Shown: positions 8,256 through 15,630 of the stretch, in pieces
Layout: each line of letters opens with the position of its first letter
How positions within the stretch are numbered: the stretch's first letter is position 1
NCBI GenBank assembly: GCA_005223125.1
Contig: NJBH01000008.1
Coordinates: forward strand, 81,206-145,205
Direction of reading: 5' to 3'
DNA: 64,000 nucleotides
DNA from: Promethearchaeota archaeon Loki_b32
GTDB taxonomy: Archaea > Asgardarchaeota > Lokiarchaeia > Sigyniarchaeales > SOKP01
Program-made: the position numbers and the translations under genes
Notes under the pieces: generated by a model
Seen by the model: only the letters and a program-made list of their open reading frames with translations
Database searches by the model: none
Told to the model about the DNA's origin: nothing

Positions 8256-9674
8256 ATGAAGAAGAAATTAAAGATTAAATTTATATCAGCGATTATTATT
8301 GGAATTATTCTATTACCTACTTGTACATTCTTCATAATCCCAACTGCTCTTGCTCAAGAGAATTCCTTTCAAAACATCTCAGTTCAAGAAGCATATACAA
8401 TGATAAAAAAGGAGGAAAATACTGAAAATCTTGTTATTTTAGATGTTAGAGATACAACCGAATTTAACTTAGGTCATTTATACGATTCTATTCTAATACC
8501 TCTCAATGACCTTGAAGCAAGAATCGGTGAACTTGAAGATTATAAGACTTCTGAGATAATAATTTACTGTAAATCTGGTTATCGAAGTCAACAAGCAAGT
8601 GAAATTTTAGGTGAATATGGTTTTACAAAAGTATATAATATGCTTGGTGGCATTTTAGCATGGATTGATGCTGATTATCCAATTTGGACAACTTCACATC
8701 ATATTACAGTAGATGAAATAACCGATAAAAAATTTGAATTATTAATAGAACCATTTCTTTTACATTATAAAGGTTGTTCAACATGCACTGAGAATCAAGA
8801 ATGTCCTATTGAGAGTGAATCAATAAGTATAACATCTGAAACATTAGAACAAGGAGAAGATCAAATAGTTATTCTCAAAAAATATGAATTTAATGGAACA
8901 GTCTATGAATTTATTCATACTCATACTATTTTATGGAGTTATGATAAATTTACTAGTAATTATAATAAATCTGCTTACTTCATTTCAACAGAAATTACTT
9001 CAGAAAATTTCTATTTGCAATATTATCAATTAGAATACGTAATATACCATAAGAACTATAACTTAACGATTTATACTCACCTTGAACCTTTAAATTCAGA
9101 GATTTATAATAGTTCATTTACATATATAAAATATACTCCTGCTAACGGAAAAGCTATAACTTCAATGGAGTTTGTGCAATTCAATATGTCTGTTATATTA
9201 TCCCAACAATACGACATTTTAGCGGATATCGCGGAAGAAATGGCAGAAATATATAAAAAATCAGAAGATTTAGACCTAATGGAACTATATTATGGTTATA
9301 CCAATATGGGAGAAGGAATTGGATCTCTTTCTGAATTAGTAAAAGAATGGCTTGGAGAATATGATTATCAAATTCTTGAAAGTGATGCAGTGTTATACGA
9401 TTACAGAGTACCCCCCATTAATGGTGGTGACCCTCCACCTCCACCTCCACCTCCACCTCCACCTCCACCTCCGCCTCCACCACCACCACCACTACCATCT
9501 TTGTTAACATGTATTATTTGTATTGCGGGTTGTGAGCTAGCGGTTTTAGCAGGATGCATTATTGCATGCATTATCTATATCCCATTTTGCCCTGTTTGCG
9601 TAGTGGTAGTGGAATTATGGGAATTATTTGACCTAGGTTGTGGTTATGTTTGTGAATATATTGGTGCTTGTTAA
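8256..9674 (+). CDS. Secreted rhodanese-domain protein with a 20-Pro linker and C-terminal 10-Cys hydrophobic halocin-C8-like peptide
   Basis: Signal peptide ending ALAQE; rhodanese motifs LDVR..EF..GH, YCKSGYRS, VYNMLGGI.AW; Pro20; 60-aa tail with 10 Cys ending VCEYIGAC. Confidence 0.75.
   Translation: MKKKLKIKFISAIIIGIILLPTCTFFIIPTALAQENSFQNISVQEAYTMIKKEENTENLVILDVRDTTEFNLGHLYDSILIPLNDLEARIGELEDYKTSEIIIYCKSGYRSQQASEILGEYGFTKVYNMLGGILAWIDADYPIWTTSHHITVDEITDKKFELLIEPFLLHYKGCSTCTENQECPIESESISITSETLEQGEDQIVILKKYEFNGTVYEFIHTHTILWSYDKFTSNYNKSAYFISTEITSENFYLQYYQLEYVIYHKNYNLTIYTHLEPLNSEIYNSSFTYIKYTPANGKAITSMEFVQFNMSVILSQQYDILADIAEEMAEIYKKSEDLDLMELYYGYTNMGEGIGSLSELVKEWLGEYDYQILESDAVLYDYRVPPINGGDPPPPPPPPPPPPPPPPPPPPLPSLLTCIICIAGCELAVLAGCIIACIIYIPFCPVCVVVVELWELFDLGCGYVCEYIGAC
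9432..9491 (+). repeat. (CCTCCA)n / (CCA)n coding microsatellite encoding Pro20
   Basis: Seen directly in the sequence. Confidence 0.95.
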
Positions 9675-9708
9675 CGGATTGGTATTTGTTCTTAATAAAC
9701 TTTAAGGA

Positions 9709-10158
9709 GTGGTTATATTGAAGCTGAAAGAAAAAATCAAGAACTTTTGGAATGAGTTTAAAAAGCATTGGTTATGGGTTAATATTGGTGCATATATGAT
9801 GATAACGATGATAAATTGGACAGGATTTTTCCTTGGCTCTATAAAATTTGAGATAGCCCTCTTAATTACACTTATATACCCCTTAATAATTCTTACTATC
9901 TTTTACATAAGAAAATCTAAATTTGAGACAACCATTTATAAGATAGTATGGATTGTATGTGGGGGTATAGCTCTAGGATTTCCAATATGGGGTATAATTT
10001 TTTTCGTCCTTATTGGAGCTCCTTGGGCTCCTTTATATGAAGCACATAATATTTTAAGAGGAAGCATTTCAATCCTGATTCTGGTACCAGCATATGGTGT
10101 GGCAGCGCATTTAATGTACAAATTAGGTAAGAAGCGAGACTATAGACCGTTTTTATGA
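9709..10158 (+). CDS. 4-TM membrane protein, paralogue 3 (candidate cognate immunity protein)
   Basis: Starts 34 bp after the Cys-rich precursor stop, with AAGGAG upstream; shares family motifs. Confidence 0.75.
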   Translation: MVILKLKEKIKNFWNEFKKHWLWVNIGAYMMITMINWTGFFLGSIKFEIALLITLIYPLIILTIFYIRKSKFETTIYKIVWIVCGGIALGFPIWGIIFFVLIGAPWAPLYEAHNILRGSISILILVPAYGVAAHLMYKLGKKRDYRPFL

Positions 10159-10512: not shown

Positions 10513-12084
10513 TTAATTATTATCAACAGTTTCTCCATATCCAATTAACCGATAACGTCTATTTATTATTCTCGAAATTGCAAAGATAAAATCTTCTGCA
10601 GGACATATTGGAGGATTTAATTTAATGATAACACTGTCTTTTAAAATTTTAGTTACTGTTCCTCCTGTTTTTTCTGTACCAACGACTAATAATAATTTTT
10701 CATTATGCTTAAGCGAATGTACTCTGAGCATCTGCTCGGAGCCAATCACCCTATCTAATAGGTTCACTTTAAATTCAATTTCATGAAGGATTTCAGGTAA
10801 TGTATCTGGTTTTCCGACTAGGTTCCCTATTAAATGATCACCCTTAGTTAAAGCAGGATCTAAGTTAGTTCCTAAACCTATAAGCCCTCCAGGTTTTGCG
10901 TTATCTAGTAGGTTACTCCCTTGACTAATACTAACAACAGTAGATTTTAAAGGAATGTATTCATCTTTCACCCTTAAACCCGGTCGAATTTCTATTTGAT
11001 CTCCAATTTTAATCATTCCTTTTAACACTGAACCACCAATTACCCCACCCTTTAAATCACTTATTTCTTTCCCAGGTCTATTAATATCAAAAGATCGTGC
11101 AATTAAAAATTGAAATTCGCCTTCAGGAAGTTTGGGGGATGGAATAATTTCTTCAAATGCTCTTATAATTAAATCTATATTTGCTCCAAATACAGCGGAA
11201 ATTGGTATTATTGGAGCGTTTTCAGCAATAGTTCCCTTAATAAATTCTTTAATTTGTTGGTAATTTTCTAATGCTTGTTCTCGTGAAACCGCATCAATTT
11301 TATTTTGAATGATGATGATATTTTTTATTCCAGCAATGTGTAATGCTTCTAAATGTTCCCTCGTTTGTGGTTGAGGACATCGCTCATCAGCCGCAATTAA
11401 TAAGCAAGCTCCATCCATTAATGAGGCCCCACTTAACATTGTTGCCATAAGAATTTCATGACCAGGAGCATCAACAAATGAAATATTCCTTCTAAATTCT
11501 AATTGTTCTTTACATTGTGGGCATAAGTAACGGGGTTGTCCTTTTTCCCTTGACTTCTCCGCTAGATAATATGTTATATATTCATCACAATTCGGACAAT
11601 ATAAAATTGTGGCATTAGAATACCCTAATTTTATTGAAATTCCTCTTTCTTGCTCTTCAGAGTGTCTATCTGTCCAATCTCCTGTTAATGTTTTCACTAA
11701 TGTAGTTTTTCCGTGATCCACATGACCTACTAAACCTATATTACATTCAGCTTGTTTTTTTATTAATTCTTTAATATTTGAAGCTTTAGTTTTAGATTTT
11801 GGTTTTGGTTTAGGTTTAGATTTTGGTTCTAGTTCTGGTTTTACTTTAGAAATAACTTTTACTTTAGATTTTGGCTCTTCTTGAGCACCAATTTCTTGAT
11901 ATAATTTCTTTGCATTAGTAATATATTTCTTTGCAGTAGCAGCACCCACACCTTTAATCTTTAACTTTATTAATTCATCAGGATTAACATTAGCTAATTT
12001 TGCAATGCTATCTATCCCTGCAGCTTTCATTTTATCTGCAGTAGCTTTTCCGATGCCAGCAATATCTGTTAAATCATATGACAT
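10513..12084 (-). CDS. eif2g: Translation initiation factor aIF2 gamma with an N-terminal helix-hairpin-helix domain
   Basis: NIGLVGHVDHGKTT, RGISIKLGY, Zn knuckle, FVDAPGHE, CPQPQTREH, QNKID, RLIGYG; preceded by ~110 aa with IAGIG/IKGVG HhH motifs and a K/P-rich linker. Confidence 0.95.
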   Translation of the reverse strand: MSYDLTDIAGIGKATADKMKAAGIDSIAKLANVNPDELIKLKIKGVGAATAKKYITNAKKLYQEIGAQEEPKSKVKVISKVKPELEPKSKPKPKPKSKTKASNIKELIKKQAECNIGLVGHVDHGKTTLVKTLTGDWTDRHSEEQERGISIKLGYSNATILYCPNCDEYITYYLAEKSREKGQPRYLCPQCKEQLEFRRNISFVDAPGHEILMATMLSGASLMDGACLLIAADERCPQPQTREHLEALHIAGIKNIIIIQNKIDAVSREQALENYQQIKEFIKGTIAENAPIIPISAVFGANIDLIIRAFEEIIPSPKLPEGEFQFLIARSFDINRPGKEISDLKGGVIGGSVLKGMIKIGDQIEIRPGLRVKDEYIPLKSTVVSISQGSNLLDNAKPGGLIGLGTNLDPALTKGDHLIGNLVGKPDTLPEILHEIEFKVNLLDRVIGSEQMLRVHSLKHNEKLLLVVGTEKTGGTVTKILKDSVIIKLNPPICPAEDFIFAISRIINRRYRLIGYGETVDNN

Positions 12085-15365: not shown

Positions 15366-15402
15366 TTATAAAATAACCGATACTTATAAAATGGTTATAT
15401 AA
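15366..15402 (+). promoter_or_regulatory. Candidate TATA boxes for the 5S precursor
   Basis: TTATAAAA at 15366 and 15384, TTATATAA at 15395, upstream of the precursor stem. Confidence 0.45.
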
Positions 15403-15450
15403 TGGTGCTAATAACCATATAAATTAAAAGCAACTCGCTTAGTGCCGGAA

Positions 15451-15600
15451 GTTAAACTTGTATGCGTTGTAGATAGTACTGTAGTTGCGATCTATGGGAA
15501 ACTACAAACTGTAAATTTGTTTACGGTCATGGTTTACGAGGAAAATACCCGGTCCCATCCGAAAAACCAGCTAATTTCGAGATGGTTCGGGAACCCGGAA
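15451..15600 (+). rRNA. rrf: 5S rRNA gene, circularly permuted and intron-containing (exons 15520-15563, 15594-15600, 15451-15515; UUUG linker 15516-15519)
   Basis: Helix I TTTACGGT(15520-27)/ACTGTAAA(15508-15); helix II TACGAG/CTTGTA; helix III ACCCGG/CCGG-AA-GT; helix V TTGTAG/CTACAA; loop E AGTA/GAAA; helix IV CTGTAG/CTATGG; conserved CCCATCCGAAC and GGAAGTTAA. Confidence 0.9.
15564..15593 (+). other. Predicted 30-nt archaeal-type (BHB/BHL) intron in 5S loop C
   Basis: Central helix TCCG/CGGG, bulges AA^A and AA^C, intron stem AACCA/TGGTT; removal restores CCCATCCGAACCCGGAA. Confidence 0.75.
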
Positions 15601-15630
15601 ATGCTATTTTATGTGGTTATAGTGTTTTCC

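What the first reader, a model, noticed from the sequence alone, without database searches (positions are those of the whole stretch)
15553..15600. 30-nt BHB/BHL-type intron in 5S loop C, leaving a 7-nt middle exon
Seen: loop C is interrupted as TCCCATCCGAA[AAACCAGCTAATTTCGAGATGGTTCGGGAA]CCCGGAA. It folds as a 4-bp helix T15558-G15561/C15588-G15591, a 3-nt bulge AA^A, an intron stem AACCA/TGGTT, and AA^C on the opposite strand. Canonical cuts remove 15564-15593 and restore the conserved CCGAAC. Established: BHB introns are known in archaeal tRNA, 16S/23S rRNA and cbf5 mRNA; I know of none in 5S rRNA. Inference: CCGG(15595-98) is needed both for the terminal BHB and for helix III, so the two splicing events are probably ordered through a conformational switch and need an EndA that accepts relaxed motifs.
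Basis: partly seen in the sequence, partly recalled or inferred. Interest (0 to 1): 0.9.

Follow-up and report, generated by a model that had tools for sequence, protein, structure and literature searches.

The report
Spliced mini-intron in Asgard 5S rRNA
A 30-base tRNA-type intron interrupts the only native 5S ribosomal RNA gene of this Asgard archaeon, a gene that is also written back half first, and environmental RNA holds exactly the cut-and-rejoined 120-base form; I found no report of an intron in any 5S rRNA.

Summary
Confirmed. The 30-nt insert 15564-15593 lies in loop C of a circularly permuted 5S gene of a Lokiarchaeia-type (Promethearchaeota) archaeon. It is the genome's only native 5S; the normal-looking copy is on a bacterial contaminant contig. 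Relatives lack exactly these 30 nt. 15 of 94 family genes carry them. The length stays 30-31 nt, the splice-helix strand is invariant, and 6 of 7 intron-stem pairs show compensatory changes. RNA contigs from two studies, 0-1 nt from intron-bearing genes, read 15563>15594-15600>15451, a 120-nt ring; intron and flanks have no cover. The joined form is in none of 135 family genomes. The motif is relaxed (HBh'/BHL); the genome has the (alpha-beta)2 EndA with the broad-specificity loop, and RtcB. The 'obligatory ordered switch' is not shown: the two motifs share no bases, although folding models favour circularisation first. Caveats: contigs, not reads; no DNA matched to those RNA samples; the excised circle was not seen. 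No paper on a 5S intron was found. This scan noted the same intron before on other DNA (e1-3769463, e1-5589289).

The parts
15564..15593 (+). 30-nt intron in 5S loop C
   Evidence: Absent at exactly these boundaries in intronless relatives; 30 nt in all 18 variants aligned and 31 nt in one more; skipped in RNA contigs
15558..15564 (+). 5' strand of the 4-bp central helix (15558-61) and 3-nt bulge (15562-64); predicted cut after 15563
   Evidence: Sequence; pairs kept in 98.6% of cells
15565..15587 (+). Intron stem-loop (h'): 15565-69/15583-87 and 15571-72/15580-81, variable 7-nt loop
   Evidence: 6 of 7 pairs show changes on both sides; 92.9% of cells paired
15588..15594 (+). 3' strand of the central helix (15588-91, invariant in 18 of 18) and second site 15592-94; predicted cut after 15593
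   Evidence: L049 has AT at the discarded AA, which fixes the register
15594..15600 (+). 7-nt middle exon: last base of loop C, 3' strand of helix III and the AA bulge; also one strand of the terminal motif
   Evidence: RNA joint 15563-C-CCGGAA-15451; profile score falls from 54.1 to 40.0 bits if this exon is skipped
15451..15563 (+). 113-nt exon of the permuted 5S gene: 3' half first (15451-15515), tetraloop 15516-19 closing helix I (15508-15/15520-27), then 5' half to loop C
   Evidence: Two separate half-matches to a canonical 5S profile in genomic order; covered by RNA contigs
15440..15451 (+). Leader strand of the terminal splice motif: outer helix 15440-44, central CCGG 15445-48, site AA^G 15449-51
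   Evidence: The discarded AA varies (AC, AT) in relatives while the mature AA is invariant; outer helix covaries
15595..15606 (+). Trailer strand of the terminal motif: CCGG 15595-98, bulge AA^A 15599-601, outer helix 15602-06
15411..15620 (+). Whole precursor, closed by a long outer stem 15411-23 / 15608-20
   Evidence: Folding; stem conserved in relatives
15383..15391 (+). Likely archaeal TATA box of the stand-alone 5S gene (inferred)
   Evidence: Conserved CTTATA motif about 60 nt upstream of the gene in relatives; not tested functionally

Best explanation
The 30 nt are a short archaeal (EndA/RtcB-type) intron in loop C of a functional, circularly permuted 5S rRNA gene. The stand-alone precursor is cut at four relaxed bulge-helix sites, after the second base of each 3-nt site: after 15450 and 15600 (terminal motif) and after 15563 and 15593 (intron). 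Two ligations give a 120-nt 5S with normal helices I-V, most likely a closed ring because helix I is sealed by a tetraloop. The leader and trailer, and the 30-nt intron, are discarded. SHOWN: sequence anatomy; precise presence/absence; covariation; the joined RNA in two studies, near-identical to intron-bearing genes; EndA alpha and beta subunits and RtcB in the genome. INFERRED: that EndA and RtcB do the chemistry (about 0.88); that the ring is the ribosomal form; that circularisation usually comes first because it frees CCGG to form helix III and close the loop around the 3' splice site (about 0.55 as a preference, 0.25-0.3 as a strict order). The intron most likely has no function beyond being removable. 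It is one of several roughly 30-nt introns gained and lost at splice-permissive sites in this family's 5S genes.
For: Intronless type-A relatives read CCGAA|CCCGGAA with no scar. 15 of 94 genes carry the intron, in two genera; pairs with identical 92-nt cores differ in it. 94.9% of cells paired, 6 pairs with two-sided changes, 0 of 500 shuffles as high, slid registers at most 58%. RNA: X2 150-nt contig (120 + 30 overlap), depth 73.6, one difference, joint 15563-C-15445 'goes back 119'. X6 contig identical to intron-bearing L056 over the exon, with the same joint on both loose ends. X7 four contigs with the joint. No depth over intron or flanks in the three RNA runs, while DNA-like run X1 spans the intron without gap. 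Nearest gene without this intron is 6 or more differences away over 103 nt. Joined form in 0 of 135 family genomes. Profile of canonical 5S genes scores 54.1 bits spliced, 39.6 with the intron kept, and less for shifted cuts. EndA alpha subunit best matches Aeropyrum-type alpha (E 2e-35) with the GxPLGxxKP loop and Tyr/His/Lys; the second paralogue lacks the His; RtcB present.
Against: RNA evidence is from assembled contigs: no strand, no ends, rare forms dropped, and a 30-nt circle is too short to appear. No DNA run from the X2 or X6 samples was laid, and close relatives do differ in intron presence, so those RNAs could come from an intronless strain. The productive fold is not the predicted minimum-energy fold (below 0.001 in the linear precursor, 0.14 in the circle). 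No biochemical test. Related sequences inflate the shuffle control.
Confidence: 0.9

Rival explanations
1. The 30 nt are an expansion segment kept in the mature 5S, as in Halococcus morrhuae or clostridial loop C inserts; the spliced RNA seen comes from intronless strains.
For: Retained 5S inserts exist, including in loop C at positions 34-37 (PMC7812874, PMC7530397). Sister genomes differ in the insert. Contigs drop rare forms.
Against: The insert splits the conserved CCGAAC rather than sitting in the variable 5' side of loop C. The invariant strand 15588-91 with fixed 3-nt spacing and a fixed 30-31 nt length is a splice geometry. RNA contigs 0-1 nt from intron-bearing genes skip it, and no contig of the three RNA runs covers it.
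Confidence: 0.05
2. The intron is real, and the two events are strictly ordered: the terminal cut and ligation must come first, after which CCGG switches into helix III and creates the intron's second site.
For: Productive intron helix below 0.001 in the precursor and 0.14 in the intron-containing circle here; higher in the circle in 18 of 19 genes. Helix III via the middle exon is essentially absent from the precursor model.
Against: The motifs share no bases and can coexist (L139, L060, L138). HBh' motifs lack the exon-side helix by definition (PMC5829648). The same models also disfavour the terminal motif in precursors that evidently work, so they are unreliable here. No intermediate was seen in RNA.
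Confidence: 0.28
3. The insert is removed by another route (RNase trimming of a hairpin, leaving a fragmented 5S, or template switching during reverse transcription), or the locus is a pseudogene or assembly artefact.
For: The genome holds a second 5S that scores 80.8 bits. Hairpins can promote reverse-transcriptase skipping (general knowledge).
Against: That second 5S is in a bacterial 16S-Ile-Ala-23S-5S operon among bacterial genes (MreC-, PBP-like) on contig C68, a contaminant. The locus recurs in independent DNA (X1, L056, 35 of 36 congeners). The joint is covalent in sequence, identical across studies, and no unspliced RNA contig was found.
Confidence: 0.04

Closest known systems
Short non-canonical archaeal tRNA introns with relaxed HBh'/BHL motifs, including those of Asgard archaea (PMC5829648; bioRxiv 10.64898/2026.10.13.758758)
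   Same: Short, ORF-less, bulge-helix geometry with cuts after bulge base 2; patchy gain and loss; host has two EndA paralogues with the L1/CSL loop.
   Different: The host RNA is 5S rRNA. The Asgard preprint never mentions rRNA. The intron is nested inside a second, terminal splice motif and leaves a 7-nt exon.
BHB introns and processing stems of archaeal 16S/23S rRNA, and the cbf5 mRNA intron (PMC7714728)
   Same: EndA-type motif outside tRNA; rRNA as substrate.
   Different: Archaeal 5S is described as not normally processed by excision and circularisation (PMC12918454). No homing endonuclease ORF here. No 5S intron found in the library.
Permuted, EndA-circularised SRP RNA of Thermoproteus tenax (Plagens et al. 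2015, PMC4731332); permuted tRNA genes
   Same: Gene halves in swapped order, new ends in a splice motif, ligated to a circle that restores the functional loop.
   Different: Here the RNA is ribosomal, carries an added intron 7 nt from the junction, and the permutation point differs among relatives. Enzyme action was shown for SRP RNA and is only inferred here.
Permuted mitochondrial 5S rRNA of brown algae (Valach et al. 2014, PMC4267664)
   Same: 5S with shifted ends and helix I replaced by a hairpin.
   Different: Those stay linear and permuted in the final product, with no splicing, ligation or intron.
5S expansion segments (Halococcus morrhuae, clostridia; PMC7530397, PMC7812874)
   Same: A hairpin insert in a 5S gene, some in loop C.
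   Different: The confirmed ones are kept in the ribosome. This one has splice geometry and is missing from the RNA contigs.

Membership tests
Archaeal EndA-type (BHB/BHL) intron | 4-bp central helix with 3-nt sites on opposite strands at the two boundaries | tested here: met
   helix paired in 98.6% of cells; spacing fixed in 18 variants
Archaeal EndA-type (BHB/BHL) intron | Boundaries fall after the second base of each site | tested here: met
   Intronless relatives and RNA joint fit; the L049 AT variant fixes the register within the repeated GAA
Archaeal EndA-type (BHB/BHL) intron | Insert absent from mature RNA, exons joined | tested here: met
   X2 joint; X6 and X7 loose ends. Contigs only; no matched DNA for those samples
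Archaeal EndA-type (BHB/BHL) intron | Cut by EndA and ligated by RtcB | not testable with these tools
   Genes present with expected architecture; activity not assayed
Archaeal EndA-type (BHB/BHL) intron | Excised intron released, often as a circle | not testable with these tools
   30 nt is below the contigs' 31-letter word; no raw small-RNA reads were offered
Canonical strict hBHBh' intron | Exon-side helix h stacked directly on the second bulge | tested here: not met
   h=0 in register; relaxed HBh'/BHL. The family's helix IV introns do have h=3-5
5S rRNA (RF00001) | About 120 nt, helices I-V and conserved loops after processing | tested here: met
   120 nt, canonical fold, 54.1 bits against a profile of 12 canonical sister-family genes; as encoded only 18.1 bits to RF00001
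5S expansion segment | Insert retained in mature RNA | tested here: not met
   No RNA depth over 15564-15593; contigs join across it
Mobile rRNA intron with homing endonuclease / group I or II intron | ORF or ribozyme core inside the intron | tested here: not met
   30 nt only; no Rfam family at gathering score in the window

The most novel reading that the evidence does not exclude
In one large Lokiarchaeia family the 5S rRNA is built entirely by the tRNA-splicing machinery. A permuted gene with up to two short introns is processed through nested, ordered splice events, with a 7-nt micro-exon switching partners, into a covalently closed ring that serves in the ribosome. Introns and permutation points move repeatedly, possibly through re-integration of the spliced ring or local duplication.
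Probability: 0.3. Interest if true: 0.92.

Novelty: new variant of a known kind. Interest (0 to 1): 0.8.

Why it matters
It adds 5S rRNA to the RNAs that carry splicing-endonuclease introns; I found none reported in the papers searched. It shows that in Asgard archaea, close relatives of eukaryotes, a core ribosomal RNA depends on two rounds of tRNA-type cutting and ligation around a 7-nt exon. It explains why Rfam finds no 5S gene in this family and warns that a contaminant copy can be mistaken for the real one. It also gives a small, testable system for an open question, how archaeal introns arrive (bioRxiv 10.64898/2026.10.13.758758): sister genomes with and without the intron, at least four intron sites, three permutation points, and one intron (G077) that contains a 17-nt copy of its own flanking exon.

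Tried and rejected
Rfam gathering scan and ARAGORN of the window: nothing. Free folding did not return the splice fold, and hairpin energy alone is not significant, so neither is used as support. The 80.8-bit 5S on C68 was rejected as the native gene: bacterial operon on a contaminant contig. An alternative single-step cut pairing 15558-61 with the leader would drop the middle exon; it scores 40.0 bits against 54.1 and does not match the RNA joint. Copying from a tRNA intron of the same genome: no second copy within 8 mismatches other than two chance-level hits outside tRNA context. One genus pattern search was badly specified and missed even the window's own gene; not used. The 5S tree has too few columns: about 6 changes of the intron label, but starred branches force only 2, so repeated gain is likely and not proven. 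The sigma-70 promoter scan does not apply to archaea. Seven literature searches for a permuted or intron-bearing archaeal or Asgard 5S found none; the library lacks most subscription papers.

Full report
Observation. All coordinates are right. T15558-G15561 pairs with C15588-G15591; 15562-64 is the first 3-nt site; 15565-69 pairs with 15583-87; 15592-94 is the second site. Cutting after the second base of each site removes 15564-15593 (30 nt). No exon-side helix follows in register, so this is a relaxed HBh'/BHL motif. It is not the predicted minimum-energy fold, and the hairpin's energy alone is unremarkable (z -1.5). The case rests on comparison and RNA.

The host gene. The locus is a stand-alone, circularly permuted 5S gene between two convergent-free ORFs of no Pfam family. 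The 3' half comes first (from G15451), helix I is closed by a tetraloop (15516-19), and the 5' half runs to loop C. A second, terminal motif pairs CCGG 15445-48 with CCGG 15595-98. Both cuts and ligations give 113 + 7 = 120 nt, which folds as a normal 5S and scores 54.1 bits against a profile of 12 canonical genes from a sister family. It scores 39.6 with the intron kept, 40.0 with the middle exon skipped, and 43.5-50.8 with a shifted cut. Rfam sees the locus at only 18.1 bits. The genome's other 5S (C68, 80.8 bits) lies in a bacterial operon with tRNA-Ile and tRNA-Ala among bacterial genes, so it is a contaminant; the archaeal 23S is on C48. Relatives are titled Promethearchaeota, that is Lokiarchaeia-type Asgard archaea.

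Relatives. 35 of 36 congeners match the locus. All 94 family genes I could parse are permuted: 64 at the same point as here (type A) and 30 at a point inside loop C (type B). 15 carry this intron, all type A, in two genera. Intronless type-A genes read straight through with no scar. Two pairs of genomes with identical 92-nt cores differ in the intron (G019/G067, G066/G073). The sister family f2 has ordinary 5S genes. Scans of metagenomes and of GTDB genomes gave 13 and 20 loci, the latter all Asgard-titled or unnamed archaea. The length was 30 nt, once 31, although 12-44 was allowed. In 18 distinct variants the helix strand 15588-91, which the original patterns did not specify, is invariant while the interior varies. 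94.9% of cells pair, 6 of 7 intron-stem pairs change on both sides, 0 of 500 shuffles reach this and slid registers reach at most 58%; kinship inflates the shuffle test. The discarded AA at each site varies in relatives (AT in L049; AC or AT in several leaders) while the retained AA does not, which fixes both cuts where the EndA rule puts them.

RNA. Three RNA runs from three studies cover 15445-15563 and nothing of the intron or flanks. X2 has one 150-nt contig at depth 73.6, with one difference, that joins 15563 through a C to CCGGAA and on into the 3' half: a 120-nt cycle plus the 30-letter overlap. X6 has a contig whose exon equals that of intron-bearing locus L056, with the same joint read from both ends. 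X7 has four contigs with the joint. The DNA-like run X1 spans 15381-15630 with the intron and no gap, so the locus is no assembly artefact. The nearest gene lacking this intron is 6 or more differences from either RNA contig, and the joined form is in none of 135 family genomes. Limits: these are contigs; no DNA from the X2 or X6 samples was laid, so an intronless strain cannot be excluded as the source; a 30-nt circle cannot appear.

Enzymes. The genome has two EndA paralogues. One best matches crenarchaeal alpha subunits (E 2e-35) and keeps the GxPLGxxKP loop and the Tyr/His/Lys triad. The other lacks the His. This is the (alpha-beta)2 type with the L1/CSL loop, known to cut HBh' and BHL motifs and known in Asgard archaea (PMC5829648). 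RtcB and uL18 are present.

Order of events. The intron motif and the terminal motif share no bases and can be formed together. Models do put the productive intron helix below 0.001 in the precursor and at 0.14 in the circle, and higher in the circle in 18 of 19 genes; yet some precursors populate both motifs at once, and the same models disfavour steps that evidently happen. I rate circularisation-first at about 0.55 as a preference and below 0.3 as a strict order.

Comparison. It works like a non-canonical archaeal tRNA intron and meets every defining feature I could test, except the exon-side helix of the strict motif; enzyme action and the released circle are untested. The host gene works like the permuted, EndA-circularised SRP RNA of Thermoproteus (PMC4731332). 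Permuted 5S is known from algal mitochondria but stays unspliced (PMC4267664). Confirmed 5S inserts are retained expansion segments (PMC7812874). Minor 5S circles in Sulfolobus were unvalidated (PMC3326292). A recent Asgard tRNA-intron census does not mention rRNA. I found no paper on a 5S intron. Earlier notes of this scan describe the same intron and permutation on other DNA; they are not independent evidence.

Verdict. A real, most likely spliced 30-nt intron in a permuted 5S gene: confidence 0.9, new variant of a known kind, interest 0.8.

Noticed in passing
L005, L030, L031, L037-L039, L053, L066, L117, L144 (helix IV loop); L119, L123, L149 (helix IV stem): Other 29-30 nt introns in the same 5S gene of relatives, with full hBHBh' geometry. 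G032 and G074 carry two introns. 18 of 94 genes have a lengthened 3' half.
   Followed up: partly
L142:391-421 (G077): A 31-nt intron at a different loop C site that contains a 17-nt copy of the exon just upstream, a possible trace of intron birth by local duplication. Single genome; assembly not checked.
   Followed up: partly
L009-L017 and others (type B); L081 (G038): The permutation point differs among relatives: type B opens inside loop C using the other CCGG strand of helix III; G038 (family f3) opens near loop B. Type-B genes are often the nearest neighbours of intron-bearing type-A genes (2 differences for G061/G029 and G113/G085) and never carry this intron.
   Followed up: partly
L113, L120, L124: An insert of about 30 nt in the tetraloop that closes helix I; my scan found no clean splice geometry for it.
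   Followed up: partly
window 15555-15564 with 15575-15585: The intron interior can pair with the loop C exon in an alternative hairpin that competes with the splice fold.
   Followed up: partly
G000 contig C68 (L001, L036): Bacterial contaminant contig with an rRNA operon and a LAGLIDADG-like ORF inside its 23S; it supplies a misleading canonical 5S. G119's 51.9-bit 5S also looks to be in a bacterial rRNA context.
   Followed up: partly
window 10513-12084 (-): aIF2-gamma with an N-terminal helix-hairpin-helix domain and a lysine/proline-rich linker. Its GKT motif is intact here, whereas earlier notes report a BHB insert in this gene in other genomes.
   Followed up: no
window 8256-10158 (+): Secreted rhodanese protein with a 20-proline tract and a cysteine-rich C-terminus, followed by a small membrane protein.
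   Followed up: no
window 15498: The deep X2 RNA contig reads A for G at this conserved position; strain variant or misreading of a modified base.
   Followed up: no
L059 (LAZR01004007.1:1-236): An intronless 5' half lies about 100 nt upstream of an intron-bearing copy at the contig start; tandem copies or a chimeric assembly.
   Followed up: no
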